Below, in pieces: positions 45,287 to 58,140 of a stretch of DNA of 64,000 bases. The notes under the pieces are model-generated. The model had not been told where the DNA came from, ran no database searches, and was given only the letters and a program-made list of their open reading frames with translations. The position numbers and the translations under genes are program-made. Source of the DNA: Escherichia coli (GTDB lineage: Bacteria; Pseudomonadota; Gammaproteobacteria; Enterobacterales; Enterobacteriaceae); assembly GCF_044324875.1 (NCBI RefSeq), contig NZ_CP172185.1; one strand, 5' to 3'. Positions within the stretch are counted from its first letter, which is position 1; the number at the start of each line of letters is the position of its first letter.

Positions 45287-45294
45287 ATCAGACA

Positions 45295-45642: not shown

Positions 45643-45645
45643 ACA

Positions 45646-46392: not shown

Positions 46393-46791
46393 TTATCTGG
46401 ATTTGTTAACGTCTTTCGTCTCCTCTGGCAGATCTTCATCAAACAACCTGCCCTGCATCCGATCCAGTTCTTCTTTTCTGACCCGCTTAACCACGCTGTA
46501 GACCCACTGAAGCGAAACACCAAACTTGCGGGCCAGTTCGTGGTGGTTGCGTCCGTTAAACTCCCTGAAGATTTCCCGGTCGCGCTGACTGACCTTCCAT
46601 ACCATGCCCATCGGGAAATAAACGTTTTGCCCGCCCCAGACCTGCATCATTCGGTTCGCGACGGCCTGACCAATCTGGTCGGCAATTGCGGGCTCAATAT
46701 CAATAATCTCGCGAACGGTCTCAGAGGTATGCTGTGCCAGCTCCACCAGGAGTTCCGGCCCTTTACTTCGAAACTGATTCAGGTCGCTCAT
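46393..46791 (-). CDS. mor: Mor-family transcriptional activator
   Basis: 132 aa. The C-terminal half (GGQNVYFPMG...REFNGRNHHELARKFGVSLQWVYSVVKRVR) resembles the phage Mu Mor/C HTH region. Confidence 0.85.
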   Translation of the reverse strand: MSDLNQFRSKGPELLVELAQHTSETVREIIDIEPAIADQIGQAVANRMMQVWGGQNVYFPMGMVWKVSQRDREIFREFNGRNHHELARKFGVSLQWVYSVVKRVRKEELDRMQGRLFDEDLPEETKDVNKSR

Positions 46792-47215
46792 GTTTTACTC
46801 CCGCAGCTCTGTGCTGCCACTTCTTCAGTTTCTCAATAACACTGCTTGCCTGTTCAGTATTGAGCCAGCGCAGGGCGCTGATGCCCGTTTCCCGCTTGAT
46901 CCACCGCGCTAATGCATTTTCTGAACGGTCACGAACAATGCCGGCAGCAGCCATTTCAAGCCATAGCGCACGGATTTTCCTGGACTGCGGATGGTTATCC
47001 AGCGGTAAACCGGAGCTGGCTTTTCCGGCAGGCTTAACGCGAAAGCCTTTCCTTTTCATGGATTCCAGCACGCAGTTTAGTTGTGTGGTATCCATTCCTT
47101 TGGTTGAGGCTTTACCGGTCAGCCCCTGTAACATCTGGCGATAGGTGTCTTCATCCATACCCAGTTCATTACGGGCAATATGAATGAGCTGGATAAGACG
47201 TTGTTTAGTCATCAT
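46763..47215 (-). CDS. GemA-like (Mu gp16, DUF1018) regulatory protein
   Basis: ORF trimmed to the ATG at 47215, preceded by AAGGAG, giving 150 aa. The motifs LIQLIHIARNELGMDEDTYRQML and QSRKIRALWLEM are typical of the GemA family. It sits next to mor, as in Mu. Confidence 0.7.
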   Translation of the reverse strand: MMTKQRLIQLIHIARNELGMDEDTYRQMLQGLTGKASTKGMDTTQLNCVLESMKRKGFRVKPAGKASSGLPLDNHPQSRKIRALWLEMAAAGIVRDRSENALARWIKRETGISALRWLNTEQASSVIEKLKKWQHRAAGVKHERPESVSK

Positions 47216-47420
47216 CGTTGCTCCTTTTACCTGCGCCACCGATATAATCGACATATAAAGGAAGCGCCACAGGCCAGCACAGGAACATCACCGACCAGCT
47301 AATCCAGTAGCCGGCACCACTGTAACGTGAATAAAACCCTGAACGGCGGTGCAGTTCAGCAGTACACCAACCGACAAAACAATACCAGAACAGGGCACAT
47401 ACAACAGATTCAGCCGTCAT
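47205..47420 (-). CDS. small two-TM membrane protein, unknown function
   Basis: 71 aa from the ATG at 47420 (MTAESVVCALFWYCFVGWCTAEL...ISWSVMFLCWPVALPLYV). It overlaps both neighbours, consistent with translational coupling. Confidence 0.5.
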   Translation of the reverse strand: MTAESVVCALFWYCFVGWCTAELHRRSGFYSRYSGAGYWISWSVMFLCWPVALPLYVDYIGGAGKRSNDDD

Positions 47421-47640
47421 TCTGAATATCCCCCCAACTGATATGAATATTACGGGCAGCAATGACAGGGTCGTTATTCCACCATGCACCTGACATGTAT
47501 TTTTCAACCTGTTCGCGTCCGGCAATAACACCAATTGTGATCCCCGGCCTGACGTTCTTAAAAAAGGCGCGGGCAAAAAGGTATCTGGCAGATATTCGGC
47601 AGGCTTTTAATTTCCGGCTGTTACCTGATAGCGTAATCAT
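47410..47640 (-). CDS. hypothetical early protein
   Basis: 76-aa ORF whose ATG overlaps the upstream stop (ATGA). No motif was recognised. Confidence 0.5.
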   Translation of the reverse strand: MITLSGNSRKLKACRISARYLFARAFFKNVRPGITIGVIAGREQVEKYMSGAWWNNDPVIAARNIHISWGDIQNDG

Positions 47641-48320
47641 CTGGCCTCCAGTTTCTGTTGTTCCTGCCCACTGACCGGGCGGTGCAGTCTGACGTTCTGC
47701 CCTTCACGAAACCCCGCATAGCGCGAGGCGTCGCCATTGCGGCTTCTTCCCGGTTTACGCGCCCTGGTGGTTTGCGTCTGCGGGTATTTATGTTCCAGCC
47801 ACTGCTGCATCAGTTCACGCTCATCATCGGTCAGGGCAAAGGACTGTATTTCACTGATAACGGCCAGCACCCAGCCTTCGGCAAACTGGTCTCCACGGCT
47901 GGTGCGGGTGGCGGTTTTTATTCTTTTGTTCTGTGCACTGATATACTGCTGACGCGCCTTTTTCAGCTGACGGGCCAGCACTTCCCAGGTGTATGCAGCC
48001 AGTGCCGCACGTTCCCGGTTGCCGTAGAACCCCACAGACGGATGCGTGCCGGGGTGAATGATGGAGTTAACACCAAATACCTCGCGGATGATGTTCATCA
48101 GGCCTGGCATGTAGCGCGGTGGACGGAGACTGCCTGTCGGCCAGTAGTGACTGATGGTTTCATCAATATCACTCATAGCAATGTCGGAATGTGTGATGCC
48201 GTGAACATCCATCAGTTTACGGGCTCGGCGCAGTGCCAGAGCGGCCTCGTGCGGGTTGCCGGATGCGGCCAGCGCCAGCAACTTTTTCAGTTTCTCAATG
48301 TGTTTATTCTGGTCTGTCAT
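47637..48320 (-). CDS. DUF2786-like early protein
   Basis: ORF trimmed to the ATG at 48320 (ATGA overlap with the upstream stop), giving 227 aa. The N-terminus IEKLKKLLALAASGNPHEAALALRRARKLM is the DUF2786 signature as I recall it. Confidence 0.6.
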   Translation of the reverse strand: MTDQNKHIEKLKKLLALAASGNPHEAALALRRARKLMDVHGITHSDIAMSDIDETISHYWPTGSLRPPRYMPGLMNIIREVFGVNSIIHPGTHPSVGFYGNRERAALAAYTWEVLARQLKKARQQYISAQNKRIKTATRTSRGDQFAEGWVLAVISEIQSFALTDDERELMQQWLEHKYPQTQTTRARKPGRSRNGDASRYAGFREGQNVRLHRPVSGQEQQKLEAR

Positions 48321-48532
48321 TGTTCTGTATCTCCGGTATTTTTCTGCCGTTTCCATGCCCGGACAGCGTCGGACAGCTCTTTCAGGCTGTATGCTGCTTT
48401 AAGCTTTTCCCATAACCACTGTGTTGTTATGTGCATCAGCAGGGCAGCCAGGGCTGCCCCCGCACTGAGGCATGTCGCCAGGCCAGTAAGAATCAGTATC
48501 CATGCGGTGATTTCCCTGAGTATGTCAGCCAT
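48317..48532 (-). CDS. small single-pass membrane protein
   Basis: 71 aa with the TM segment ITAWILILTGLATCLSAGAALAALLM. Confidence 0.5.
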   Translation of the reverse strand: MADILREITAWILILTGLATCLSAGAALAALLMHITTQWLWEKLKAAYSLKELSDAVRAWKRQKNTGDTEQ

Positions 48533-48546
48533 TGAATGCCTCCCGG

Positions 48547-48843
48547 TTACTCGTTCGTGTAAATCACGCCCAGTCGTGCAGCCAGACGTTCCAGTTTTTT
48601 CTGTTTGTGGAAGTCAATCAGCCGGTCCATCCCCTGAAGGCGCAATTGCTCTGTCATGATTTCCACGTCTGCCAGCTCTGCCGCGAGGTCGCTTTCGCTG
48701 CCCTGTCCGTTCAGATTGCGGGCAGCACTGGCCGCCAGTTCAGCGGCCTCTTCTGTCAGTTTCAGGGCCTGTGCGTCCGGCCCGAAACGCTGCAGGGCCA
48801 GACGGTAGAGGGCGGTGCGGGTGAGTATGGTGTTCCGTGTCAT
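48547..48843 (-). CDS. MazG-like all-alpha nucleoside triphosphate pyrophosphohydrolase
   Basis: 98 aa. It carries the metal-binding pattern E-E-x2-E (LTEEAAEL) and E-x2-D (AAELADVEIM), typical of small phage MazG-like proteins. Confidence 0.6.
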   Translation of the reverse strand: MTRNTILTRTALYRLALQRFGPDAQALKLTEEAAELAASAARNLNGQGSESDLAAELADVEIMTEQLRLQGMDRLIDFHKQKKLERLAARLGVIYTNE

Positions 48844-48852
48844 GCCGCGCCC

Positions 48853-49125
48853 TCAGTGCTTCCGGCTGACGGTGATGTGCAGGCCGCCTTCTGCAGTGGT
48901 TTCCATCCGGTACGGCACCTCATGCTCTGCCGTGTGGGTGAGTGTGTTCATCAGTACCTGCAGGGCAGCCGCCTTTCCGTTGGTTGCCACAATGGCCTGT
49001 GTGGTCATGCTGATTAGCGCCGTCAGGACGTGCTTCACATCGGTGAGGTCGCGGCATTCACACTCGTTGACATAGTGTTCAACAAGGGTTCGGGTGCGCT
49101 GTCGTGCTTCCTGTGGGGTAATCAT
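48853..49125 (-). CDS. hypothetical early protein
   Basis: 90-aa ORF whose start overlaps the upstream stop (ATGA). No motif was recognised. Confidence 0.5.
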   Translation of the reverse strand: MITPQEARQRTRTLVEHYVNECECRDLTDVKHVLTALISMTTQAIVATNGKAAALQVLMNTLTHTAEHEVPYRMETTAEGGLHITVSRKH

Positions 49126-49316
49126 TGCGAGTCCTCCCTGTCAGGGCGGGAGAATTCCATGACGGGCACGTCTGCCGAAAAATGCTGGCTGCAGTACGGG
49201 CAGACCAGGGTGACGCGTACCGCAGGGATGTGGTATTTACCGGACATCACGGCGATGGCGCTGTGAAAACGCAGGGCTGTTATATCCCTCTCGCACTGAA
49301 TACATTTAAATATCAT
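49122..49316 (-). CDS. zinc-ribbon protein
   Basis: 64 aa with two CxxC pairs (CIQC ... CPYC), preceded by GAGGAG. Confidence 0.5.
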   Translation of the reverse strand: MIFKCIQCERDITALRFHSAIAVMSGKYHIPAVRVTLVCPYCSQHFSADVPVMEFSRPDREDSQ

Positions 49317-49413
49317 GATTTAATTCTCCTCTGTTTCCGGCGTGCAGAAGCCCGCGGCGCTGACGCCGGAATAAAAAAGAAAATGTTTTTATTAAATAAT
49401 TAACGTGGTGTGT

Positions 49414-49944
49414 TTACTGCACATCCTGCTCAAAAGGAATTATTGAAAAATCCTCAATGTCGCTTTTAATGGAAATACCGGGAATATTTTTCACGGCCTC
49501 TTTTTCATTCAGGATAGCGTCTTTATTTATTTCCTCTTTTACACGAATAAAGCGCTCAAGCCCCAGACGTCTCAGTAATTCAATAACATTATCCGCCCCA
49601 CGGATACTGACTGATGGCGGACGGTTTCGCCACTGCACCTCGCCGGTGGTAAGGTTAGCGAACTTCACCTTCCCGTTGCCGGTCAGTTCATCACGGTGCG
49701 CCTCACACCATGTCTGGATACCGGACTGCAGTTCGGCCATGCGTTTTTTCAGGCTCTCGGTGAGCGGGGCATAACGTGCGGTGATATCGCCAATGGCGTC
49801 ATTCATTTCTGTTTCAGCCCTGACCAGTTCACGTTGTGCGTCACCGAGTAGTCTGATTCCCTCAATGACCTCTTCGCGTGTCCCTGGTACCCAGAGTGCC
49901 GCTGCGGCCTTGATACGTTTTGCCCCTTTTGTACTTTTTGCCAT
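49414..49944 (-). CDS. gam: host-nuclease inhibitor Gam (Mu Gam / Ku-like)
   Basis: 176 aa. It is collinear with Mu Gam from my memory of that sequence: MAK..KRIK.AAA, ETEMNDAI, WCEA.RDELT..GKVK.ANL.TG, W..RPPSVSIRG, RLGLERFIR, EDFSIIPFEQ. Confidence 0.9.
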   Translation of the reverse strand: MAKSTKGAKRIKAAAALWVPGTREEVIEGIRLLGDAQRELVRAETEMNDAIGDITARYAPLTESLKKRMAELQSGIQTWCEAHRDELTGNGKVKFANLTTGEVQWRNRPPSVSIRGADNVIELLRRLGLERFIRVKEEINKDAILNEKEAVKNIPGISIKSDIEDFSIIPFEQDVQ

Positions 49945-49971
49945 ATTTTATGATTTCTCCGGTTGTGCTGA

Positions 49972-50241
49972 TTACCACAAAGATTCCGGCCACACGACGC
50001 GACAGCCGTGCAGTTCGAAAACGCCCTGACGGAAATATCCCCTGTGGTCATGTCCGGTATACAGATAACAGGCCTTTCCCTGCTCAAGCATGCGCATGCA
50101 ATGCGCACTCCGGGAAACGCGGATGACAGGTTTGTTACCCCTGATGGTGATGCTTTGTACATCCGTGTTCGTCGCCTTAAGCGCCATAATGGCTGACTGC
50201 ACTTTGCTGATTTGCTGGTTGATACCTGTGGTGGATTTCAT
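49972..50241 (-). CDS. hypothetical early protein
   Basis: 89-aa ORF immediately after the B-like ATPase gene (stop 50244, start 50241). No motif was recognised. Confidence 0.5.
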   Translation of the reverse strand: MKSTTGINQQISKVQSAIMALKATNTDVQSITIRGNKPVIRVSRSAHCMRMLEQGKACYLYTGHDHRGYFRQGVFELHGCRVVWPESLW

Positions 50242-50243
50242 TA

Positions 50244-51410
50244 TTAAACTCCTTTGACAACGTCAGCGTTGACCTGTGGAACCCCGATTTCAGCGGCCAG
50301 ATTCATGGCGGCTATTACCAGGTTACTGACGGCCAGCGGATACAGCAGGCTGACCATATTTTTACGATGACTTCCCGGATTGCTCAGGCGGGCACGTATG
50401 GCATCCACTGCGCTGGCGTCCATAATGTCCGTCAGTTGTTTACCGGCCCGTTGCAGTTTGAACGTCAGAAATTCTTCAAGGTTATTGTCCAGAGGCAGAA
50501 GTTCGACCACCTCACAGCGCTGAACGACTTCACGGACTTCCATATTGCGTTCAGACAGTTTTGTCGCCAGTTCCGGCTGGCCAATCAGCACGATGGACAG
50601 CAGTTTTTTGAAACCGGACTCCAGCTCAAAAAAGCGTTTGAGGTGTTTCAGTGTCGGAATGGGCAGACTGTGGGCCTCCTCAATCACCAGAACGTGGCTG
50701 AACCCCGCCTGGCTGCTGTCTTTCAGGACGCGATGCAACTGGCGAAAGCGGGCGTCCTGACTGCGTCTGATGCTTTCCAGTGGTGCGATGGTACTGATAA
50801 TGGCTTCGGCAATAGCTGCTGCCTTCAGGGTTTTCCCTTTCACATCGTTGTCTTCCATAGCGATGATGTATGGCTCGATAACAATTACCGGCGCATTCTC
50901 GCGGTTAATACGTTCAGTCAGGTCGCGGCGCAGCGTGGATTTACCCGCACCGGACTCACCGATGACGGCCATAAACCCACCATGACGGGCTGTCTGGTAC
51001 AGCGCCTCACGCACGTAGCGAATGTCCGGGGTGGTGAACACATCATCAGAACCCTGCATGGCTTCATCGGCGAACGGGTCACGGAAAAGACCAAACGCTT
51101 TTTTGGTTGCTGGAAATAACACCTGTTTTTTGAGTAACATATTCTCTTCCTCACTGAGGCTCGTTTTATCTGTGGTACCCGCTGTACGGGGCGTGGCCGC
51201 GCCCTGTACAGCATCAAAACTCTTCGTTGTATCAATCCCCTGACTTTCCAGCCAGGACGCAAGACGCCGGCGCACTTCTCCGGGGCTGGTGCGGGGCCAC
51301 GCGTTATGATTCACAATCTGGGCCAGCGTGGCCTCAGAAACATCGACAGCTCTCGCCGCCACCGCCTGTGGAATACGGGCCTCTTTCAGTTGCTGCTTCA
51401 GTACCAGCAT
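50244..51410 (-). CDS. transposition ATPase (MuB analogue, ExeA/AAA_22-type)
   Basis: ORF trimmed to the ATG at 51410, preceded by GAGGAGGG, giving 388 aa. It has an N-terminal HTH-like segment, Walker A GESGAGKST and Walker B HVLVIEEAH. It lies directly downstream of the transposase gene. Confidence 0.85.
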   Translation of the reverse strand: MLVLKQQLKEARIPQAVAARAVDVSEATLAQIVNHNAWPRTSPGEVRRRLASWLESQGIDTTKSFDAVQGAATPRTAGTTDKTSLSEEENMLLKKQVLFPATKKAFGLFRDPFADEAMQGSDDVFTTPDIRYVREALYQTARHGGFMAVIGESGAGKSTLRRDLTERINRENAPVIVIEPYIIAMEDNDVKGKTLKAAAIAEAIISTIAPLESIRRSQDARFRQLHRVLKDSSQAGFSHVLVIEEAHSLPIPTLKHLKRFFELESGFKKLLSIVLIGQPELATKLSERNMEVREVVQRCEVVELLPLDNNLEEFLTFKLQRAGKQLTDIMDASAVDAIRARLSNPGSHRKNMVSLLYPLAVSNLVIAAMNLAAEIGVPQVNADVVKGV

Positions 51411-51420
51411 GTTTCCCTCC

Positions 51421-53190
51421 TCAGTTGCCGTTAACAATGCTGATAACGCTGCTGCGGGCCGGCGTGGTCAGCGTGGCCATGACTTCATCCAGTGCGGCTT
51501 CCGGTACGCCGTCCGGGTACTGTGCTGTTAACTGGCGGTAATGTTCCGGCGTCCAGGTCAGGCCGTCGGCGCTGAACTTATCGCGCAGGGCTTTCGCGGC
51601 CTCCACATGAGTCATGGGACGCTGTTCAGTGCGCGGTCCGCGTACGTCAGAGGCCTGACCACGCTTCGGTATACAGGCCGGAAGTGTGGCGTCATCAATA
51701 TGTTTATACGGGTCAAGCCGCCCGCCGAACGGCAGCGCCTTCGCCTTGCGTGCGGCAGCTGCATCTGCGGCGTTGTCTGTACCGGTGACCAGCGCTTCGG
51801 TTTCTTTTGCCGCCATCTGCGCCGGGGTTTCCGGCAGGGCTTTGTAACTTTCGCCAAATACCGCCGCGCCTTCAGCAAAGCCAAACTCGTTCTTTCTGAC
51901 CTCTTCGACCAGGAAGAACGTCTCGTGGCCGTCCTCACCGGTCAGAACCACCTGTGCCACATCGCTGCGCCACGGGTTACGGGTAATCATCAGTTTTTCA
52001 CCGACCAGTACGCCCGGTACCGTTGATACGTCAAATTCAGTGCCCCGGAACGAGACACGAAGTTTTGGCGTGACTTTGCGGAGTTCTGGTGCCGCCACAG
52101 CCAGTTCACGACATACCTCAACGGAAGGCGCTTTTTTCAGCTGCTCAGCAGTAATCTTCAGCCAGATATCCGTGCGGGTTTTACCGTGGCGGCTGTGAAC
52201 AGCCGTGGCGTTAAAGTGGCTGCGCCATTTCGCGGCCAGCGCGTTGAGTTCTTCCAGACTGTGAACCGGCCGGAACTTCAGACCCGGCTCCAGCTTGCGT
52301 TCGATAATGTCACGCGCCTTTTCCACCTGTCCGGTGGCGCGGGCGTTATGCGGCTTGTGCGCTATCAGGTCGATGCCCAGTGAGCGGCACATGTTTTTCG
52401 TCATACCCGCGGTGTTTGCCGAGCCGGGGTCGAGATAGAGTATTTTTGGCACGCCGTGCAGCACGTCTGCGCCGCCACGCTCCTGCATGGCGTTGATAAG
52501 CACAGAACACAGGTTCTCACCGGATTCCGCACCCGTCACATACTCAACGTAAATCCAGCCGCTGGCATGGTCGGTAATCTCGTAACTCCACACGCGGTCA
52601 CTGGCGATACGGGCAAGGTTAGCGGGCTTGTTTTTGTAGAATTTCGCGCTGTCCATCACCTGCAGCCCTTTATGTCCATTGCTCAGGTAGTAAAGCGTGC
52701 AGAGTGAGGCGTCAATCTGCCAGACATGATTGGGGTGCAGACTGGCCACTTCGGTATGCGGTGCAGGGGCATCCAGTTGTTCCGGGTGCAGGCCATAGTT
52801 ACGCAGGGCACGACTGATGGCATCTTCGGACAACGGGAAAAACTCACCGGTGGTTTCATCTGTTCTGCCTGCGGAGATAAAGCCGTTAGCCCGCAGGGTT
52901 TCCACTGCATCCGCGATGGAATAGAGACGCTTACCGTTCTTGCGGGTGGCCTCACGTAGTGTGGCAGATATCAGCGCGGCTTCGTCGCGGGTCAGGGTGC
53001 TGCGTCCGGCATCGGCGCGTTTTTTGCGTTTATCAGTCACAGAGACCTCCTTCAGCCTGCGCAGCAGAGTGGCGCGGGACATGCCAAGTTCAGCACAGGC
53101 AGCGTCGTATATTGCACCGCGTTTACCATGCCCCGCATTACGTGCCGCGCGGGCTGTTTCAACAAGTTTTTCAGTCAGTGCCGGGGTCAT
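51421..53190 (-). CDS. DDE transposase (MuA analogue, rve/integrase core)
   Basis: 589 aa with an N-terminal HTH (MSRATLLRRLKEV). The catalytic triad candidates are D in VWQIDAS, D in LYLDPGS and E 36 residues later (GQVEKA), which is the D-x35-E spacing. Confidence 0.9.
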   Translation of the reverse strand: MTPALTEKLVETARAARNAGHGKRGAIYDAACAELGMSRATLLRRLKEVSVTDKRKKRADAGRSTLTRDEAALISATLREATRKNGKRLYSIADAVETLRANGFISAGRTDETTGEFFPLSEDAISRALRNYGLHPEQLDAPAPHTEVASLHPNHVWQIDASLCTLYYLSNGHKGLQVMDSAKFYKNKPANLARIASDRVWSYEITDHASGWIYVEYVTGAESGENLCSVLINAMQERGGADVLHGVPKILYLDPGSANTAGMTKNMCRSLGIDLIAHKPHNARATGQVEKARDIIERKLEPGLKFRPVHSLEELNALAAKWRSHFNATAVHSRHGKTRTDIWLKITAEQLKKAPSVEVCRELAVAAPELRKVTPKLRVSFRGTEFDVSTVPGVLVGEKLMITRNPWRSDVAQVVLTGEDGHETFFLVEEVRKNEFGFAEGAAVFGESYKALPETPAQMAAKETEALVTGTDNAADAAAARKAKALPFGGRLDPYKHIDDATLPACIPKRGQASDVRGPRTEQRPMTHVEAAKALRDKFSADGLTWTPEHYRQLTAQYPDGVPEAALDEVMATLTTPARSSVISIVNGN

Positions 53191-53205
53191 AGCTTGTCTT
53201 CCCTG

Positions 53206-53523
53206 TTATCCGATTCTGGCGGCAATTTTTCTGGCACGGTCGCGCAGGGTTTCGCCATCGCAGGTTTTCACCACGTTATTTACCGGTTGCGGCGCAACTG
53301 CCGGGCGCAATGCTGACTGATGCTGCAGACGTCTTATCTGCTGCATCAGCATCACTTCCATCGTCAGTACAAACGGATGCGCCTCCTGTGCGGGTACGCA
53401 GATTTCACCGGAAGGTGTCACCACGCGGAAACCCTGCACCATCTCCGGCAGCAGATTACACAGTGCGTGCCCCAGTGCCTCCGGGCTGTCCATCAGGATA
53501 TTTTGTGTGTTATCCGTGTTCAT
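53206..53523 (-). CDS. hypothetical early protein
   Basis: 105-aa ORF whose start overlaps the upstream stop (TAATG). Confidence 0.5.
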   Translation of the reverse strand: MNTDNTQNILMDSPEALGHALCNLLPEMVQGFRVVTPSGEICVPAQEAHPFVLTMEVMLMQQIRRLQHQSALRPAVAPQPVNNVVKTCDGETLRDRARKIAARIG

Positions 53524-54440
53524 TACTGCATGCCCTCCGGTCGGTTGATTTCAGGCTCCGGTTCGGTCAGCCATGCGGGGACATCGTTACCCGATGGTGC
53601 GGCATCAAGGTCGAACGTCTCACGCAATGCATGAACACTGCGTTCAATCTGGCAGACCAGACCGGCCATGAAATCTCTGGGGGTATCAATCATGTTTTTA
53701 CTGCAGTATTCACACAGGGTTTCAAAGGCACCGGAGAGCCGGACGGCGATGGCAGATTCCGCCTCAACCGCTAATGCGGTCACTTCCGCCCGCAGCTTCT
53801 TCACCTCTTCATCAGGCTCAGGCGGTTGAATACGGGATTTCTTCTCCAGTTTTGTGGCCAGTTCGTTGATTTTTTCGTCCTTTCCGGCAAGCACCTGTTG
53901 CTGAGCTGCGTTAGTTTCGCGCGCTTCACGCAGGGCCTGGCGAAGTTCACGTACTGACATGCGATCAACATCATCAAGCGTCAGGCCGGCAACTGTGCCG
54001 CCGTCGGCCAGTTCGGCAAGGTCTTCATCGTCTTCAGCAACAAGTTCAAATAATTTTGCCTTACCCAAAAGCGACAACGTTGTCGCTTTTGGCTCTAGTT
54101 TTGGTGAAAGGTATTTCAAAGATGCTTTCATCATTCGTTGTGCTGCGCGCACGTGCAAACCAAGTTGTTCTTCTACAATTCCAACAAAGTCCCCGTGTGG
54201 CTCATTTTCTTTTAAGATGATCAGCCGTTTACCCGCTTCCAGCATAGATTCAGCACTCTGCGCCATATAAAAACGTGCTTCGTGAACGATGCGATCACGT
54301 TCATAAGGCAGTCCATCACCAAACTGCTGCATGATCTCCATGCGATGCTGTGTCATGGCATTCAGGCTGACGTTGAGATCATCCGACAGCGGTACCTCGG
54401 CGTTCAGTTCAGTGTTAACCGGTGATTTGGTGCGTCCCAT
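53523..54440 (-). CDS. coiled-coil early protein (possibly DUF3102-like)
   Basis: 305-aa ORF preceded by AAGGAG. It has a central acidic segment and a long predicted coiled coil (RELRQALREARETNAAQQQVLAGKDEKINELATKLEKK). The family assignment is from memory only. Confidence 0.5.
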   Translation of the reverse strand: MGRTKSPVNTELNAEVPLSDDLNVSLNAMTQHRMEIMQQFGDGLPYERDRIVHEARFYMAQSAESMLEAGKRLIILKENEPHGDFVGIVEEQLGLHVRAAQRMMKASLKYLSPKLEPKATTLSLLGKAKLFELVAEDDEDLAELADGGTVAGLTLDDVDRMSVRELRQALREARETNAAQQQVLAGKDEKINELATKLEKKSRIQPPEPDEEVKKLRAEVTALAVEAESAIAVRLSGAFETLCEYCSKNMIDTPRDFMAGLVCQIERSVHALRETFDLDAAPSGNDVPAWLTEPEPEINRPEGMQ

Positions 54441-54450
54441 TGATTACTCC

Positions 54451-54765
54451 TTACAAACGACTACCTGAAATGACACGTTGGTTGATTTCGTTAATGCGAT
54501 CCTGTGCACGTGCCATCTCGTTACTGTGGGCCATGGCGATCTGCAGCAACTGGATGCCCGGTGCGAAACGCCCGTTTTCCAGTTTCAGGGCCAGTCCTTC
54601 TTCAATGAGGGTGTTGAGTGCCCGGTTGATGTTTGCCGGTGACTCGTGCAGTGCTGCCGCCAGTTCACCATTGGAAATACCGTTCAGGGCATGACCGCGC
54701 AGCGCTTTGAGTACCCGGAGGATGCGACTGCCGGAGCTTGAAACATTCGTCTTACTCATCTGCAT
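54451..54765 (-). CDS. winged-helix DNA-binding protein (IclR-N-like)
   Basis: 104 aa. The segment RILRVLKALRGHALNGISNGELAAALHESPANINRALNTLIEEGL resembles an IclR-type wHTH. Confidence 0.55.
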   Translation of the reverse strand: MQMSKTNVSSSGSRILRVLKALRGHALNGISNGELAAALHESPANINRALNTLIEEGLALKLENGRFAPGIQLLQIAMAHSNEMARAQDRINEINQRVISGSRL

Positions 54766-54811
54766 ACCTCTTTTGCGATATGTGATAACCTTTTACAAAG
54801 AATCAAAATAT

Positions 54812-55000
54812 TCAGGCTGCCTGAGCTGTTGATTTCAGCCCCAGTTTCACGGCGATTTCATGGGATTTACCGTAACGTGCTTTGCTCTGCCCATTGAGAA
54901 CGCGGTATACCTCATTGCGGTTGTAGCCGTTTTCTTCTGCCCAGCGGGTGAAAGTGATCCCGCGCTGGCGGAAGAGAGCTTTGACTTGTTCTGCAGTCAT
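54812..55000 (-). CDS. small HTH protein, first gene of the early operon (Ner/Cro functional analogue, BcepMu gp16-like)
   Basis: 62 aa, preceded by AAGGAG and divergent from the repressor gene. The HTH-like segment is FTRWAEENGYNRNEVYRVLNG. Confidence 0.6.
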   Translation of the reverse strand: MTAEQVKALFRQRGITFTRWAEENGYNRNEVYRVLNGQSKARYGKSHEIAVKLGLKSTAQAA

Positions 55001-55100
55001 CGTTGTCTCCTTTGTTGATGCAATGATGTTTGCCTTATGTGTGATAGATTATGGTGCAGATTATCTCACCAGTCAACTTAAAGAGTGCAGAAAAACTCAC
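55001..55100. promoter_or_regulatory. divergent immunity/early promoter-operator region
   Basis: 100-bp spacer between the Ner-like gene and the repressor gene. It contains GTGAT-AGATTAT-GGTGC-AGATTAT-CTCAC, with the 7-bp direct repeats at 55046 and 55058 and outer GTGA/TCAC inverted arms. Confidence 0.55.
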
Positions 55101-55439
55101 ATGATCGGGTTACGTATTAAAGAAGAAAGAGAGCGTCTATCTCTTACACAGCAAGGGTTGGCTGATGCTATCGGTGTGGCAAAGAGAACTTTTATTGATT
55201 GGGAAAAAGATCGCACTTCTCCTACTGCAGTGCAGTTATCTGCACTATCAGAAATCGGTGTAGATGTTTTGTATGTAGTTACTGGGGTGCGGAGTCAGCC
55301 TGTTGTTGCACCTTATATGTCACAAGAAAAGAAAGAGTTAATGGATGCATTCGACGAGATGAGCCCCGAACAACGGAGGGCAATTCTTGAGGTCGGCAAA
55401 GTCTTCATTCAACCCAAACCAAGCAAACTCGCAGGCTGA
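55101..55439 (+). CDS. XRE-family prophage repressor (no peptidase domain)
   Basis: ORF 54948..55439 trimmed to the ATG at 55101, giving 112 aa. The HTH_3 motif is LRIKEERERLSLTQQGLADAIGVAKRTFIDWEKDRTSP. Confidence 0.8.
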   Translation: MIGLRIKEERERLSLTQQGLADAIGVAKRTFIDWEKDRTSPTAVQLSALSEIGVDVLYVVTGVRSQPVVAPYMSQEKKELMDAFDEMSPEQRRAILEVGKVFIQPKPSKLAG

Positions 55440-55524
55440 TTCTGACCTGGACAGAAAGGACAGGTGGTTGATCTGGATGCTTTCAGAAAACGCCGTCAGT
55501 AGCATGGCAGAAATCGGCGGGCTT

Positions 55525-55549
55525 ACCGGAAAGCACTGTACTTTCCGGT
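55525..55549. terminator. hairpin between the convergent repressor and dam genes
   Basis: Stem ACCGGAAAG / CTTTCCGGT with a 7-nt loop. The flanking T runs are weak. Confidence 0.4.
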
Positions 55550-55557
55550 TATGGCTT

Positions 55558-56322
55558 TTAGAAATTGCAGATCACCAGCTCACGGCGTGGAGTTGATTTG
55601 CCTGCCAGACTGTAGTTGATGTTCACTGTCTGTATGTTCAGTCCAGTGAACACCTCGCGCATCTGCGGGATGTCGTTCACCGAAATTATCATCTTTCCTC
55701 TGATGCACCGGGCCAGCTCTGCCAGCCGCGAGTAGTTCCCTTCAGGAAAATCCACACCATAGCCTTCTGTACCCAGATACGGCGGGTCACAGTAGAACAG
55801 CGTGTGCGGACGGTCATAGCGCTCAATGCACTGTTGCCAGTCCATGTGTTCTATCACCGTTCTGGAAAGCCGCAGGTGTGCCGCTGACAGTTCTTCCTCG
55901 ATACGCAGCAGGTTGAAGCGTGGCGGGGATGTGGTGGAGGTGCCGAAGCTGTGCTCTGCCACCTTGCCGCCAAACGCCTGCTTCTGGAGGTAGTAGAACC
56001 GTGCTGCACGCTGGATATCCGTCAGTGTTTCTGTCGGGGTGATCTGCAGCCATTTGTAGATCTGCCGGCTGACCAGCGCCCATTTGAACTGGCGGACAAA
56101 TTCTTCCAGATGATGTTTTACCACCCGATACAGATTTACCAGTTCACCATTGATATCGTTAATGACTTCGAGCTTACCAGGTGTCTTAAGAAAATAGAGC
56201 GCTGCTGCGCCGCAGAACGGCTCCACGTAACATTCATGCGCCGGAAACAGCGGCAGGATGTGTTTTGCCAGGCGACGTTTGCCACCAATCCATGGAACGA
56301 TGGGTAATGTCTGCATTTTCAT
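55558..56322 (-). CDS. dam: Dam-type N6-adenine DNA methyltransferase (D12 class), orphan
   Basis: 254 aa with the AdoMet motif EPFCGAAALYF and the catalytic DPPY motif (FYCDPPYLG). No adjacent nuclease gene was recognised. Confidence 0.9.
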   Translation of the reverse strand: MKMQTLPIVPWIGGKRRLAKHILPLFPAHECYVEPFCGAAALYFLKTPGKLEVINDINGELVNLYRVVKHHLEEFVRQFKWALVSRQIYKWLQITPTETLTDIQRAARFYYLQKQAFGGKVAEHSFGTSTTSPPRFNLLRIEEELSAAHLRLSRTVIEHMDWQQCIERYDRPHTLFYCDPPYLGTEGYGVDFPEGNYSRLAELARCIRGKMIISVNDIPQMREVFTGLNIQTVNINYSLAGKSTPRRELVICNF

Positions 56323-56514
56323 AATCTGTAAGCCTTTTACAATTATTAAAAATATGGCAGGCTAGTCTGGTCTCGCGAGACTGACTGAACCCCGGTCGGC
56401 TCACAGCGCATTCCTGTGGGACGATGGCCAGCCCGGTGGGTCCGAAGCACCGGGCTGGTCGTTCTTTCATGATGCGGCAGGGATGAAGTGATTTCTGTTA
56501 ATGTGGTTTAGGGA
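56323..56514 (-). other. structured GC-rich spacer upstream of dam (possible regulatory RNA/leader or protein-binding dyads)
   Basis: A perfect 12-bp palindrome GTCTCGCGAGAC lies at 56370-56381, with AGTC/GACT extensions. A perfect 11-bp stem CCAGCCCGGTG / CACCGGGCTGG lies at 56428-56458; its loop contains CUUCGG on the minus strand. There is no convincing ORF. Confidence 0.3.
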
Positions 56515-56730
56515 TTATCCGGGGCGATTTTCTGACCTTATCTGGTCCAGGGCATAAGTGATCCCTTCTGCAAAAACAGAAGTATCAAACTGCTTTTGTA
56601 TTTCCTGAAAATGAACAGTGGCACGACAGACACTCAGTTCTCCGCGATGTAACCGGATAATATCTTCCAGAACATTGTTCACTGCTTCGGCACGGCGCTG
56701 ATGTTCTGTTAACGTTAATCGGGGATTCAT
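56515..56730 (-). CDS. hypothetical 71-aa protein
   Basis: ORF preceded by AAGGAG (plus strand CTCCTT at 56738-56743). No motif was recognised. Confidence 0.5.
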   Translation of the reverse strand: MNPRLTLTEHQRRAEAVNNVLEDIIRLHRGELSVCRATVHFQEIQKQFDTSVFAEGITYALDQIRSENRPG

Positions 56731-57107
56731 GATGCACTCCTTAAATGATGATTTTTATGTACTCACCGGCAAAATATTCTGCCGATTACTGAACACGCAT
56801 CCGGCTCCTCAGGTTTTGATTTATTCTGGTTTTTTCGATATCCCGGACCAGGTTGATCACGACAGAAAAAGTGCCGGTATTTTATTGATACGCTGATATG
56901 GCTTCGGGATAACAGCTATATTCGTTACTCTCAGTTGCTGGCTGTGGGAGCGGCTGATGTCGTCCTCACGGAAAAAACGCTCTGTCTGCTCAATGCCATG
57001 CCGACCTTTCTGCAGCCCCGGCCCGTACCATTTAAAGAGTCACTTCTGGATGCAGTAAAAACCGGTGAAAATGCAGTCATCGCTGAATGCGTATCCCGGA
57101 TTATGCG

Positions 57108-57656
57108 TTACGTGTTTAATGAACGTAAGTGAGGTTTATCCGCTGTCTGCATAATCCCGATAGCCAGTGCGAGGGGAAGCAATTCCGGGGAAACTCTTTC
57201 AAACAGCGATTCCCATTCTCCTCTCGCCATCACTCTGTCCAGCCCGCCCTCCAGCTGCATTTCAGCAATCTTCCTGATTTCCCGGAACAACGCCGCTTTG
57301 ATCTCTTCATGCTCAGCTTTATTTTCCGGTGTCAGAATGTATTCGTCGAAGAACCGGGGAGGCTGGTTAACGGGGGGCATGTTCACCGGGATGTGTTCCT
57401 GTATCCCGTACTCCGGGGCTGAAAAACATTTTGTTGTCTGACCGGTGAGTTTGCGTAACACCTTCATGAGTTGCTCCTGAAGCAGCTCATTCGTCCGACA
57501 GATACGCTCGTCGTCCACAACTGCGGCATCGACAATGACGCTTTTTCCAAATTCCTTTTTCACCATCTCTTTTATACGCGTCAGAACGTAACTTTTACCG
57601 CTGCCTACAGGCCCGGACACTCTGACGGTGATGGTCGGCTTCGGTGTGACTGTCAT
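57108..57656 (-). CDS. hypothetical protein with an N-terminal Walker-A-like motif
   Basis: ORF trimmed to the ATG at 57656, preceded by AAGGAG, giving 182 aa. ITVRVSGPVGSGKSYV fits GxxxxGK[ST], and SVIVD follows only about 20 aa later, which is atypical for a complete P-loop fold. The C-terminal half is helical. Confidence 0.55.
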   Translation of the reverse strand: MTVTPKPTITVRVSGPVGSGKSYVLTRIKEMVKKEFGKSVIVDAAVVDDERICRTNELLQEQLMKVLRKLTGQTTKCFSAPEYGIQEHIPVNMPPVNQPPRFFDEYILTPENKAEHEEIKAALFREIRKIAEMQLEGGLDRVMARGEWESLFERVSPELLPLALAIGIMQTADKPHLRSLNT

Positions 57657-57787
57657 TCTGTATCTCCTTTGTGAGTGATCCAGCGTGTATTCTGCATACC
57701 CCGAACACGCCTCTCTCTTAACGCGCTTTAAAATCCTCCGCGCCACGCTTTTGCCATGCTGTCTCCACACAACAAGGAGACATTTTC

Positions 57788-58138
57788 ATGAAACCATTCA
57801 CTTCCCTTATCGTTGACGTACAAAAAACCCGCCTGCGTGGATGGCTTGTTGCGGCCGTGCTGCTGCTCCTCATCATCGCGCTGGTCTCACCCCAGCAGTT
57901 GCCGGTGGTGGTGTACAAGCTCTCTCTCATCTCCCTCGCCGCCGTGCTCGGCTACTGGCTGGACCGCTCACTCTTCCCGAAGGCCCGTCCGGGGCAGTAC
58001 CTGAAGCATGACGAGCGCCTCATGGCTGAGGGGCGCTGGCCCGTACAGACCGGCCTTCACCTGGTGTTTTCTGCTGCGTTAATCCGCCGTGCACTGATTG
58101 TTGCAGCTGTCTGTCTGGCTGTTGCGATGGGGCTTTAA
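57788..58138 (+). CDS. putative holin (3 TM)
   Basis: 116 aa, preceded by AAGGAGA. It has three hydrophobic segments and sits immediately upstream of the endolysin gene. Confidence 0.6.
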   Translation: MKPFTSLIVDVQKTRLRGWLVAAVLLLLIIALVSPQQLPVVVYKLSLISLAAVLGYWLDRSLFPKARPGQYLKHDERLMAEGRWPVQTGLHLVFSAALIRRALIVAAVCLAVAMGL

Positions 58139-58140
58139 TC

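What the first reader, a model, noticed from the sequence alone, without database searches (positions are those of the whole stretch)
46393..58138. Early operon points away from the late genes (BcepMu-type layout, not Mu-type)
In Mu, the early, middle and late genes all run in one direction away from the repressor end. Here the Ner-like, transposase, B, gam and mor operon runs leftward to the phage end, while the lysis and terminase genes run rightward. The repressor and an accessory cassette lie between the two. This matches my recollection of the BcepMu/SalMu family rather than a recent inversion. The early operon ends with a clean terminator and the phage terminus follows directly.
Basis: partly seen in the sequence, partly recalled or inferred. 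Interest (0 to 1): 0.4.

Follow-up and report, generated by a model that had tools for sequence, protein, structure and literature searches.

The report
BcepMu-type transposable prophage, divergent early operon
The left 18.7 kb of a common E. coli Mu-like (BcepMu-type) prophage is here, and its early genes do run away from the late genes, but this is the normal, already published layout of that phage family and not a rearrangement.

Summary
The core observation holds. From 55000 down to 46393 an uninterrupted minus-strand operon runs: BcepMu-gp16-type HTH, wHTH, DUF3102, rve transposase, ExeA-type ATPase, Gam, GemA, Mor. It ends at a strong terminator (46350-46320). A repressor (plus strand), a minus-strand Dam/orf71/P-loop cassette and then the plus-strand holin, SLT endolysin, gp27 and TerL follow.

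Gene order and strand match BcepMu (36 of 55 CDS of an IS-free copy, all collinear), Pseudomonas phage B3, a Salmonella prophage and 64 of 68 informative relatives. Only chance-level inverted repeats flank the block. The layout is published for BcepMu, and about 12% of complete E. coli genomes carry this prophage. The finding is therefore already known.

Two corrections:
- The phage end is at 45285, inside host lhr, 1.03 kb beyond the terminator. An accessory 210-aa membrane gene lies in between.
- The 548-aa ORF among the late genes is the IstA of an IS21-family element that splits the Rz-like spanin gene.

Three things were noticed in passing:
- A covarying perfect palindrome sits inside the DUF3102 gene.
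- A family-wide hairpin sequesters the holin Shine-Dalgarno.
- Four distant relatives have a Mu-like collinear layout.

The parts
45285..45327 (+). Left prophage end (attL). It has a terminal TGA and two GAGATAAAT repeats (45296-45304 and 45319-45327), which are putative transposase-binding sites. Host lhr is cut at 45284.
   Evidence: Identity with copies of the prophage in kefF and gcl starts exactly here. Both BcepMu ends and about 33 relatives have the same register, TGA-N8-G(A/C)GATA(A/T)AT-N14-repeat. The host flank is lhr.
45481..46278 (.). Left-end accessory region ('moron') between the terminator and the terminus. It holds a 53-aa ORF (45481-45642, plus) and a 210-aa membrane ORF (45646-46278, minus).
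   Evidence: Hits are phrog_15726 and phrog_12870, both of unknown function. There are no Pfam, NCBIfam or PADLOC hits. In most enterobacterial relatives the end lies about 150 bp after mor, so this region is absent there.
46320..46350 (-). Intrinsic terminator that closes the early operon.
   Evidence: 13-bp stem, 5-nt loop and a TTTTTTTAT tail on the minus strand.
46393..46791 (-). mor, the only Mor/C-family activator and the last early gene.
   Evidence: Pfam Mor 1.1e-43; 56% identity to BcepMu gp01.
46763..47212 (-). gemA homologue.
   Evidence: Pfam GemA 1.6e-40; 44% identity to BcepMu gp02 and 36% to Mu GemA.
47205..49316 (-). Seven small early ORFs, including a DUF2786/DUF7168 protein (47637-48320).
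   Evidence: ORF packing, Pfam and the RefSeq annotation of an identical copy.
49414..49944 (-). gam, a host-nuclease inhibitor.
   Evidence: Pfam Phage_Mu_Gam 9.9e-41. It is 61.5% identical to Mu Gam and has no homologue in BcepMu or B3.
50244..51410 (-). ExeA/AAA_22 ATPase, the positional analogue of MuB (BcepMu gp08 type).
   Evidence: Pfam AAA_22 3.9e-20; 59% identity to BcepMu gp08; no similarity to MuB.
51421..53190 (-). DDE (rve) transposase of the BcepMu gp09 / B3 ORF12 type.
   Evidence: Pfam rve; 68% identity to BcepMu and 56% to B3; no similarity to MuA.
53523..54440 (-). DUF3102 gene (BcepMu gp10 type) with a hypervariable central cassette (aa about 84-135).
   Evidence: Pfam DUF3102; mosaic divergence among near-identical prophages.
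54063..54094 (.). Perfect spacer-less palindrome AGCCAAAAGCGACAAC|GTTGTCGCTTTTGGGT inside the DUF3102 gene.
   Evidence: Found. It lies at the homologous position in 37 of 56 relatives, and both arms change together. The CAAA..TTTG type is strongly enriched upstream of tnpA across the family.
54451..54759 (-). Winged-HTH (IclR-like) regulator, BcepMu gp12 type.
   Evidence: Pfam HTH_IclR; phrog_1368; 57% identity to B3 ORF14.
54812..55000 (-). First early gene, a small HTH protein of the BcepMu_gp16 family. It is the positional analogue of Ner/Cro.
   Evidence: TIGR04111 at 98 bits against a cut-off of 34; 71% identity to B3 ORF17; no similarity to Mu Ner.
55048..55076 (-). Candidate early promoter Pe (TTGACT-17-CATAAT).
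   Evidence: This is the only 10-of-12 consensus match on the minus strand in 45-59 kb, and it lies 48 nt upstream of the first early gene. The function is inferred.
55101..55439 (+). Repressor-type HTH_3 gene, divergent from the early operon. A plus-strand terminator follows at 55525-55549.
   Evidence: Pfam HTH_3; 37-38% identity to BcepMu gp17 and B3 ORF18; terminator scan.
55558..57656 (-). Variable accessory cassette: Dam methylase (55558-56322), orf71 (56515-56730) and a P-loop ORF (57108-57656).
   Evidence: Pfam MethyltransfD12 9.6e-29; PHROG hits. Sequences upstream of the late-promoter box are unrelated between relatives.
57715..57736 (+). Candidate late (lysis) promoter box CTCTTAACGCGCTTTAAAATCC, with a -10-like TAAAAT at 57729-57734.
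   Evidence: Conservation begins here in 11 enterobacterial relatives. A TTAAAA(T/G) box lies at the same distance from the holin across clades. A related box recurs upstream of the head-protease gene in the intact copy and in BcepMu. The function is inferred.
57755..57790 (+). Leader hairpin that pairs the holin Shine-Dalgarno (GGAG, 57776-57779) and start codon.
   Evidence: MFE -13.7 kcal/mol, z = -2.7. Across the family the median z is -2.67 and the median P(SD paired) is 0.80, against about 0 and 0.3-0.7 for other gene starts.
57788..58875 (+). Holin (57788-58138) and SLT-domain endolysin (58141-58875).
   Evidence: Pfam Holin_2-3 1.7e-41 and SLT 1.5e-13; 58-61% identity to BcepMu gp21 and gp22.
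58865..62161 (+). Rz-like spanin gene, split into 58865-58965 and 61603-62161 by an IS.
   Evidence: The uninterrupted 217-aa gene is present in the identical prophage L002; 32% identity to BcepMu Rz.
58966..61604 (+). IS21-family element (ISSso4-like) carrying istA and istB, with TG..CA ends and an AAAG target duplication.
   Evidence: Pfam IstB_IS21 2.4e-60 and rve plus Mu-transpos_C_2. The insertion is absent from 11 otherwise identical prophages.
62158..64000 (+). Late genes continue: gp25-like (62158-62484), gp26-like (62484-62795), gp27/DUF3486 small-terminase-like (62792-63340) and the TerL N-terminus (63337 to the window end).
   Evidence: Pfam Phage_Mu_Gp27 6.7e-51; 44-58% identity to BcepMu gp25-gp28 in the same order and on the same strand.

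Best explanation
Window 45285-64000 is the left part of a BcepMu-type transposable (Mu-like) prophage. It inserted by transposition into the E. coli lhr gene. Its divergent layout is the ancestral, standard organisation of this phage lineage and not a local inversion.

Shown:
- Gene content, order and strands.
- The left end.
- Homology to BcepMu and B3.

Inferred mechanism:
- In the lysogen the plus-strand repressor shuts the divergent early promoter near 55076-55048.
- On induction, one leftward transcript makes the gp16-type HTH, wHTH, DUF3102 protein, rve transposase, ExeA-type ATPase, Gam and finally GemA and Mor. It stops at the terminator at 46350-46320, before the left-end accessory gene and host DNA.
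- Mor is the only Mor/C-family activator. It then turns on rightward late promoters, the first being the conserved TAACGC..TTTAAAAT box at 57715-57736 in front of the holin.
- Because early transcription runs away from the late genes, lysis and morphogenesis genes are insulated from early read-through.
- Holin translation is probably damped further by a leader hairpin that sequesters its ribosome-binding site.

This particular copy carries an IS21-family insertion in its spanin gene, so its lysis is probably impaired.
For: -
- Collinear, same-strand homology to BcepMu covers 15 window genes and 36 of 55 CDS of the intact copy. B3 is also collinear.
- Against Mu, only Mor, GemA, Gam, head genes and Gin match, and the three early ones are on the opposite strand and in reverse order relative to the late genes.
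- The left end is defined by three independent insertion sites (lhr, kefF, gcl) and by a terminal motif shared with BcepMu.
- Two complete copies have 6-bp target duplications.
- 639 of 5426 complete E. coli genomes carry the transposase-ATPase segment, in different host genes.
- 64 of 68 relatives have the divergent layout, and so does a Salmonella relative.
- The early promoter and terminator come from the scan.
- The late-promoter box repeats in front of two late operons in both the E. coli phage and BcepMu.
- Literature: the two-cluster BcepMu organisation (PMC2771037). [quoted passage not shown]
Against: - No transcription data were available, so promoter assignments, Mor dependence and operon limits are inferences from sequence.
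- The right two-thirds of the prophage, including attR, lies outside the window and was only seen in identical copies elsewhere.
- Nucleotide identity to BcepMu itself is below megablast detection, so strict genus membership is uncertain.
- Four distant relatives with the same transposase family are collinear like Mu, so the layout is not absolutely fixed in the lineage.
Confidence: 0.93

Rival explanations
1. A recent inversion of the early block occurred in a phage that was originally collinear like Mu, in this strain or its immediate lineage.
For: Four distant relatives with the same transposase family are collinear (L037, L039, L043, L070). The orientation has therefore changed at least once in the family's history. 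An IS element is also present nearby.
Against: - All relatives with 72-94% transposase identity in which late genes were visible, all E. coli copies examined, PhiKM, BcepMu, B3 and a Salmonella prophage share the divergent layout.
- There is no inverted repeat above chance at the block borders.
- IS-free copies have the same layout.
- The terminal motif sits just beyond mor in about 33 relatives.
Confidence: 0.02
2. The region is two unrelated elements lying side by side, such as a transposon-like early module and a separate defective prophage, or an assembly artefact. On this reading it is not one phage genome.
For: The transposase and ATPase are unrelated to MuA and MuB, while the head genes resemble Mu. 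The region is visibly mosaic: Gam and Gin are Mu-like.
Against: - The whole 37.7-kb unit, bounded by matching inverted terminal motifs and 6-bp target duplications, recurs intact at different chromosomal sites.
- The same unit is a plaque-forming, sequenced phage in Burkholderia (BcepMu). A 95% identical sequence is deposited as a phage genome from an E. coli host (PhiKM).
Confidence: 0.02

Closest known systems
Burkholderia phage BcepMu (NC_005882; Summer et al. 2004, cited in PMC2771037)
   Same: - Two divergent clusters: mor to gp16-type HTH on the bottom strand reaching the left end, then repressor, holin, SLT, Rz, gp27, TerL, heads and P2-like tails on the top strand.
- Homologous rve transposase (68%) and ExeA-type ATPase (59%).
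- The same terminal motif architecture.
- One Mor-family activator.
- The same late-promoter-like box and a palindrome in the gp10 (DUF3102) gene.
   Different: - Protein identity is only 31-76%, and there is no megablast-level DNA identity.
- BcepMu lacks Gam and a Gin-type invertible tail-fibre segment.
- Its genes between repressor and holin (gp18-20) are on the top strand, whereas here Dam, orf71 and the P-loop ORF are on the bottom strand.
- In BcepMu mor lies 364 bp from the end. Here an extra 0.75-kb accessory region intervenes.
Escherichia phage PhiKM (PQ738613, GenBank taxonomy Bcepmuvirus) and the prophage present in about 12% of complete E. coli genomes
   Same: 95-100% nucleotide identity over the early, control and lysis regions, with identical gene order and strands.
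   Different: This copy is inserted in lhr, a junction not found in the 5426 complete genomes. It carries an IS21-family insertion in the spanin gene. PhiKM has a different DUF3102 central cassette and palindrome, and lacks the left-end 210-aa gene region in its partial record.
Pseudomonas phage B3 (NC_006548)
   Same: The same divergent layout and homologous early genes: transposase 56%, ATPase 55%, DUF3102 52%, gp16-type HTH 71%. It also has a holin/SLT lysis cassette.
   Different: B3 has a siphovirus-type late region, no Gam homologue and different accessory genes.
Escherichia phage Mu / D108 (Muvirus)
   Same: Transposable temperate phage with Mor, GemA, Gam (61.5%), TerL (about 49-58%), portal and head-morphogenesis homologues. 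The full prophage also has a Gin invertase (76%).
   Different: - Mu is collinear: c points leftward and ner through late genes all point rightward.
- Mu has MuA, MuB and Ner proteins that are unrelated by BLASTP.
- Mu uses a two-step Mor then C cascade.
- Mu makes 5-bp target duplications (established knowledge), against 6 bp here.
SalMu-type Salmonella prophages
   Same: A Salmonella enterica prophage (L088) with an 81% identical DUF3102 protein shows the same divergent layout and gene set. The literature lists SalMu as a BcepMu relative (PMC3417384).
   Different: The S. Typhi CT18 SalMu sequence itself was not available in the collections and was not compared. L088 has a CI-type repressor and other accessory genes.

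Membership tests
BcepMu-like transposable phages (Bcepmuvirus and relatives) | rve-type (Tn552/IS481-like) DDE transposase homologous to BcepMu gp09, not to MuA | tested here: met
   68% identity over 98% of the protein. BLASTP against MuA gives E = 0.46.
BcepMu-like transposable phages (Bcepmuvirus and relatives) | ExeA/AAA_22 ATPase (gp08) immediately downstream of the transposase | tested here: met
   59% identity and 100% coverage; Pfam AAA_22.
BcepMu-like transposable phages (Bcepmuvirus and relatives) | Two divergent gene clusters with the gp16/gp17 lysogeny switch at the interface | tested here: met
   TIGR04111 (BcepMu_gp16) scores 98 bits against a cut-off of 34. The feature is described in PMC2771037.
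BcepMu-like transposable phages (Bcepmuvirus and relatives) | TG...CA termini with repeated terminal motifs at both ends | tested here: met
   The left end at 45285 has the BcepMu register. The right end is outside the window and was verified only in identical copies L002 and L087.
BcepMu-like transposable phages (Bcepmuvirus and relatives) | Quasi-random insertion by transposition with a short target-site duplication | tested here: inconclusive
   The different host junctions are lhr, kefF, gcl, flgJ and a fimbrial gene. Two other copies have 6-bp duplications, TCCTGT and GTCAGG. The duplication for this copy cannot be seen because attR is outside the window.
BcepMu-like transposable phages (Bcepmuvirus and relatives) | Holin, SLT endolysin and Rz/Rz1 cassette followed by gp27/TerL, Mu-like heads and P2-like tails | tested here: met
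   Window genes are, with Rz split by an IS. Heads and tails were seen only in the identical copy L002.
BcepMu-like transposable phages (Bcepmuvirus and relatives) | Genus-level nucleotide identity to BcepMu (ICTV uses about 70% over the genome; from memory) | tested here: not met
   Megablast of 12.9 kb returned no BcepMu hit, and protein identities are 31-76%. The 95% identical PhiKM is nevertheless filed under Bcepmuvirus in GenBank. Membership therefore holds at the family or 'BcepMu-like' level, and strict genus placement is doubtful.
Muvirus (Mu, D108) | MuA transposase, MuB ATPase and Ner | tested here: not met
   No significant BLASTP similarity. Mu is absent from the 69 phage records that matched the transposase.
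Muvirus (Mu, D108) | Collinear early, middle and late transcription away from the repressor end | tested here: not met
   The early operon is on the strand opposite to the late genes.
Muvirus (Mu, D108) | Two Mor/C-family activators acting in sequence | tested here: not met
   Only one Mor-family gene is present in the window and in the complete identical copy.

The most novel reading that the evidence does not exclude
The layout itself is not new. However, the early region carries an apparently undescribed cis element: a perfect, spacer-less 26-34 bp palindrome of the form CAAA(A/T)-N8-10|N8-10-(A/T)TTTG.
- In the window it lies at 54063-54094, inside the hypervariable HTH-like cassette of the DUF3102 gene, about 600 bp upstream of the transposase gene.
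- It is kept as a palindrome, with different inner sequences, in Enterobacterales, Burkholderiales, Neisseriales and phage B3.
- In the Pseudomonas clade it sits instead inside or near the repressor gene.
- It may be the binding site of a co-evolving dimeric phage protein, possibly the DUF3102 protein itself, in the way parS lies within spo0J.
- Such a protein could gate transcription into the transposase gene or assist transposition.

Together with the family-wide hairpin that sequesters the holin Shine-Dalgarno, this would add two unrecognised control points to BcepMu/B3-type phages.
Probability: 0.3. Interest if true: 0.5.

Novelty: already known. Interest (0 to 1): 0.18.

Why it matters
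The main point matters for annotation only. Mu-like prophages of E. coli and Salmonella with a leftward early operon should be read as BcepMu-type phages, not as rearranged Mu. Their left boundary should be set by the terminal TGA-N8-GAGATAAAT motif and not by the mor terminator.

The practical corrections here are:
- The true end is at 45285, inside lhr.
- A left-end accessory gene belongs to the prophage.
- An IS21-family insertion probably cripples the spanin.

The incidental elements (palindrome, holin leader, late-promoter box) would matter only if experiments show that they regulate transposition or lysis timing in this very widespread prophage family.

Tried and rejected
- **Inversion scars.** The repeat finder and my own ungapped scan with shuffles found only a chance-level long-range repeat (19 of 22 nt, 46530 with 58813). 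Everything stronger is a local hairpin.
- **Known RNA families.** Rfam at E <= 1 over 45-64 kb gave no match.
- **Defence-system reading of the accessory genes.** PADLOC gave only orphan or type II methyltransferase models for Dam and sub-threshold SngB/HerA hits for the P-loop ORF. I did not pursue this.
- **The 210-aa left-end ORF.** It has no Pfam, NCBIfam or PADLOC hit and only one distant phage hit. Its function stays unknown.
- **Extra copies or half-sites of the palindrome.** None above chance in the window or in the whole prophage copy.
- **RNA or DNA level for the palindrome, from wobble bias.** There were 5 G.T against 11 C.A/A.C mismatches, which is uninformative.
- **Classical intrinsic terminator for the palindrome.** I rejected this as the sole explanation. 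The 'U-tract' position covaries (A-U to U-A) and the element also occurs in the oppositely transcribed repressor gene.
- **Repressor as the binding partner.** This is unlikely, because loci with identical palindromes have different repressors.
- **Structure of the DUF3102 protein.** The AlphaFold2 model was poor (mean pLDDT 45.6), so I ran no fold search. PDB sequence search was empty.
- **Literature.** The B3 genome paper (PMC516594) is not held. No paper discusses DUF3102 function.
- **SalMu.** S. Typhi CT18 SalMu itself could not be fetched. A Salmonella enterica relative was used instead.
- **Transposase tree.** It is a quick neighbour-joining tree without support values. It serves only to show that the four collinear relatives do not cluster.

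Full report
**1. What is in the window**

ORF listing and domain scans show a compact minus-strand gene string from 55000 to 46393:
- a 62-aa HTH protein, 54812-55000 (NCBIfam TIGR04111 'BcepMu gp16 family', 98 bits against a cut-off of 34)
- an IclR-like wHTH, 54451-54759
- a DUF3102 protein, 53523-54440
- orf105
- an rve-domain transposase, 51421-53190
- an AAA_22/ExeA-type ATPase, 50244-51410
- orf89
- Gam, 49414-49944
- seven small ORFs, including a DUF2786/DUF7168 protein
- GemA, 46763-47212
- Mor, 46393-46791

The consensus scan finds one good sigma-70-like promoter on the minus strand at 55076-55048. This is 48 nt upstream of the first gene. It also finds a 13-bp-stem, T-tailed terminator on the minus strand at 46350-46320, 43 nt after the mor stop.

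To the right lie:
- a plus-strand HTH_3 repressor-type gene (55101-55439) with its own plus-strand terminator (55525-55549)
- a minus-strand cassette of Dam methylase, a 71-aa ORF and a P-loop ORF (55558-57656)
- the plus-strand holin (57788-58138), SLT endolysin (58141-58875), gp25-like and gp26-like genes, gp27/DUF3486 (62792-63340) and the start of TerL (63337 onward)

The central observation, that the early operon points away from the late genes with the repressor and an accessory cassette between them, is therefore correct.

**2. Two corrections to the observation**

*The phage terminus does not follow the terminator.*
- Megablast against complete E. coli genomes shows the prophage-specific match starting at window 45283-45286 in strains where it sits in unrelated loci.
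- Base-level comparison with the copy in kefF of strain MS1494 (L002, 99.98% identical) puts the end at 45285, TGATCAGACATGAGATAAATG.... The copy in gcl of strain STIN_95 (L087) begins with the same terminal sequence.
- The end has the same architecture as both ends of BcepMu: TGA, then G(A/C)GATA(A/T)AT at positions 12-20 and again at 35-43.
- The same motif occurs once, just beyond mor and pointing inward, in about 33 genomic relatives.
- The host sequence up to 45284 is the lhr helicase gene.
- Between terminator and terminus lie 1,035 bp. They carry a 210-aa membrane ORF (45646-46278, minus; phrog_12870, no other hit) and a 53-aa ORF (45481-45642, plus).
- In most enterobacterial relatives the terminus is only about 150 bp beyond mor, and in BcepMu it is 364 bp beyond. 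This interval is therefore a lineage-specific accessory insertion.

*The late block is interrupted.*
- Window 58966-61604 is an IS21-family element (IstA plus IstB; RefSeq 'ISSso4 family') that is absent from 11 otherwise identical prophages.
- It splits the 217-aa Rz-like spanin gene.
- The 548-aa ORF at 59087-60733 is IstA, not a terminase.

**3. Which family**

- The transposase finds BcepMu gp09 (68% identity), phiE255-type Burkholderia phages, B3 and many B3-like Pseudomonas phages (56%). It finds no Mu or D108 record.
- Direct BLASTP of the first early protein, the transposase and the ATPase against Mu Ner, MuA and MuB gives nothing.
- Fifteen window genes have BcepMu and B3 homologues in the same order and on the same strands.
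- For the complete IS-free copy, 36 of 55 CDS match BcepMu and all are collinear.
- Only 9 of 55 match Mu. The three early ones (Gam, GemA, Mor) are inverted in strand and order relative to the late genes.
- The closest isolated phage is Escherichia phage PhiKM (95% nt identity), which GenBank files under Bcepmuvirus. Its permuted partial record shows the same strands.
- The published description of BcepMu states that genes 1-13 are on the bottom strand, genes 17-52 on the top strand, and the lysogeny control genes 16 and 17 at the interface, followed by the lysis cassette (PMC2771037).
- A review lists SalMu, PhotoMu and ChromoMu as relatives. [quoted passage not shown]

**4. Test of the inversion alternative**

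- No inverted repeat pairs the borders of the early block.
- The only long-range repeat at 19 or more of 22 nt joins the mor and SLT coding regions. Twelve shuffles reached 17-20 of 22.
- I fetched 80 genomic loci encoding transposase relatives of 50-94% identity, from Enterobacterales, Burkholderiales, Neisseriales, Pseudomonadales and others. I then mapped early and late markers by tblastn.
- In 64 of the 68 loci where late genes are within reach, they lie upstream of and opposite to the transposase. This is the BcepMu layout.
- All informative loci with 72-94% transposase identity are of this kind.
- A Salmonella enterica prophage retrieved through its DUF3102 protein shows the same layout.
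- The transposase-ATPase segment is present in 639 of 5426 complete E. coli genomes, usually at 95-99% identity, on chromosomes, at different sites.
- Target duplications of 6 bp flank two complete copies: TCCTGT in kefF and GTCAGG in gcl.
- The exact lhr junction of this window is not in the collection.

**5. Exceptions**

Four distant loci have the Mu-like collinear order. They are L037 (Burkholderiaceae MAG), L039 (Oxalobacter MAG), L043 (Rhodocyclus tenuis) and L070 (a proteobacterial MAG), with 53-67% transposase identity. Their order is repressor (minus), then gp16-type HTH through transposase to Mor, then holin or gp26/gp27/TerL all on one strand.
- L078 may be a fifth, because its terminal motif lies on the repressor side.
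- They do not cluster in a quick neighbour-joining tree of the transposase (no support values).
- The orientation of the whole repressor-to-mor segment has therefore changed more than once, or modules have been exchanged.
- A single inversion of the segment from the repressor gene through mor converts one layout into the other. This is an inference.

**6. How it most likely works**

*Shown:* gene content, order, strands and the left end.

*Inferred:* the following regulatory sequence.
- The repressor and the gp16-type HTH flank a 100-bp divergent control region.
- Early transcription runs leftward and ends at the mor terminator.
- Mor is the only Mor/C-family protein in the window and in the full copy. 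It activates the late promoters directly.

*Candidate first late promoter:*
- In 11 enterobacterial relatives the sequences upstream of the holin are unrelated (different accessory genes) until a block CACT-TTAACGC-TTTAAAATCC begins (window 57715-57736).
- A TTAAAA(T/G) box sits 55-60 nt before the holin start across clades.
- A related box (TAAAGCAGATTAAAAT) recurs on the late strand in the gap before the head-protease gene of the intact copy.
- In BcepMu the same 20-nt string, TAAAGCCGATTAAAAGACC, precedes both the holin and the protease gene.

The divergent arrangement means early read-through cannot enter the lysis genes. This is a plausible rationale, not a tested one.

**7. Things noticed inside the finding's coordinates**

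*(a) Holin leader.*
- The window has the hairpin TGTCTCC-N9-GGAGACA, which pairs the Shine-Dalgarno. An outer stem pairs the start codon (z = -2.7).
- BcepMu has a different, stronger structure that also buries its SD (z = -5.2).
- I scored 46 non-identical relatives over -60..+15 around the holin start. The median z is -2.67, 63% fall below -2, and the median P(SD paired) is 0.80.
- Ten control gene starts in the same loci have median z from -0.3 to +0.7 and median P(SD paired) from 0.31 to 0.72. For nine of them 0-6% fall below -2; GemA is the exception at 20%.
- Stem sequences differ by clade, but an anti-SD always pairs with the SD.
- This recalls the sdi stem-loop of lambda S (from memory). 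I found no description of it for this family.

*(b) Palindrome in the DUF3102 gene.*
- A perfect 16+16 palindrome without spacer lies at 54063-54094 inside the DUF3102 gene.
- At the homologous codons, 37 of 56 relatives have at least 12 of 16 palindromic pairs. The outer CAAA/TTTG is conserved and the inner positions differ between phages but change on both arms, so the encoded amino acids change too.
- On 25 distinct sequences, 96% of cells pair and 9 of 13 pairs show double-sided changes. There are 63 such cells against 18.8 in shuffles and at most 11 in slid controls. The caveat is that I chose these rows for being palindromic.
- Some lineages have a real loop instead (L030, L045, Lonsdalea).
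- Across 80 loci, perfect palindromes (arms of at least 11, loop of at most 2) of the CAAA..TTTG type number 22 in the 4.5 kb upstream of the transposase (0.34 Mb in total). Only 1 lies in the remaining 1.23 Mb.
- They fall into two positional classes: inside the DUF3102 gene, or, in the Pseudomonas clade, upstream in the repressor region. In L085, the one locus where ORFs were checked, the site lies inside the repressor ORF 5803-6288.
- Among near-identical E. coli and Salmonella prophages the DUF3102 gene is mosaic. Only its central part (aa about 84-135) diverges. That part holds both an HTH-looking motif with a hypervariable putative recognition helix and the palindrome.
- Seven allele classes pair one-to-one, while the N- and C-terminal parts reassort. 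Linkage alone could give this pairing.
- There is one site per prophage, no Rfam match, no literature, and the structure model was too poor to use.
- My best guess is a DNA-level binding site for a co-evolving dimeric phage protein. This is a hypothesis.

*(c) Mosaicism with Mu.* Gam is 61.5% identical to Mu Gam and absent from BcepMu and B3. The full copy has a Gin-type invertase (76% identity to Mu Gin) with an invertible tail-fibre segment, which the literature says BcepMu lacks.

**8. Verdict**

- The interpretation as BcepMu-type and not a recent inversion is supported.
- The layout is a textbook property of a described phage group and of a prophage found in roughly one in eight complete E. 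coli genomes.
- Novelty is 'already known' and interest is low.
- The palindrome and the holin leader are the only items that might repay further work.

Noticed in passing
window 54063-54094 (inside the DUF3102 gene 53523-54440); homologous sites in L003, L005, L006-L042, L060 and L079; alternative sites in L048, L055, L064, L082, L084 and L085: A perfect spacer-less palindrome, CAAA(A/T)-N|N-(A/T)TTTG, is embedded in coding sequence. It is kept as a palindrome with different inner sequences across the family: 96% pairing and 9 of 13 pairs with double-sided changes, on rows chosen for being palindromic. There are 22 such palindromes in the 4.5 kb upstream of tnpA against 1 elsewhere in 1.23 Mb. 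In the Pseudomonas clade the site lies upstream in the repressor region (inside the repressor ORF in L085, the one locus checked). It sits in a hypervariable HTH-like cassette of the DUF3102 protein. The function is unknown.
   Followed up: partly
window 57755-57790 (holin leader), with a candidate late-promoter box at 57715-57736: A hairpin pairs the holin Shine-Dalgarno and start codon. Across 46 relatives the holin leader is unusually structured (median z -2.67, median P(SD paired) 0.80), unlike 10 control gene starts. A TAA(A/C)GC..TTAAAA(T/G) box precedes the holin and again precedes the head-protease gene in the intact E. coli copy and in BcepMu.
   Followed up: partly
window 58966-61604: An IS21-family (ISSso4-like) element with istA and istB is inserted in the Rz-like spanin gene (fragments 58865-58965 and 61603-62161). 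It has TG..CA ends and an AAAG duplication. Eleven otherwise identical prophages lack it. This copy is probably lysis-impaired.
   Followed up: yes
window 45285-46320: A lineage-specific accessory region lies between the mor terminator and the true left end. It holds a 210-aa membrane ORF (phrog_12870) and a 53-aa ORF. There is no family, defence-system or structure hit, and only one distant phage homologue. No promoter was detected.
   Followed up: partly
window 43099-45284: The host lhr (ATP-dependent helicase) gene is truncated by the prophage insertion. This lhr::prophage junction is absent from all 5426 complete E. coli genomes searched.
   Followed up: partly
L037, L039, L043, L070 (possibly L078): Distant relatives with the same transposase family (53-67% identity) have a Mu-like collinear layout, with mor directly followed by the holin or gp26/gp27/TerL on the same strand. 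They do not form a clade in a quick transposase tree, which suggests repeated flips or module exchange. L037 lacks the holin leader hairpin and the TTAAAA box.
   Followed up: partly
window 49414-49944; L002 40177-40749: There is mosaic exchange with Mu. Gam is 61.5% identical to Mu Gam but absent from BcepMu and B3. The complete prophage ends with a Gin-type invertase (76% identity to Mu Gin) and an invertible tail-fibre segment, which the literature says BcepMu lacks.
   Followed up: partly
L002 3096-3101 and 40828-40833; L087 101-106 and the six bases after the prophage right end (about 39179-39184): Two complete copies of the prophage are flanked by 6-bp target duplications (TCCTGT and GTCAGG). 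Mu makes 5 bp.
   Followed up: yes
window 1-43000: The rest of the window (host chromosome upstream of rnt-lhr) was not examined. The composition profile shows low-GC stretches at 17-18 kb (0.43) and 24-25 kb (0.44).
   Followed up: no
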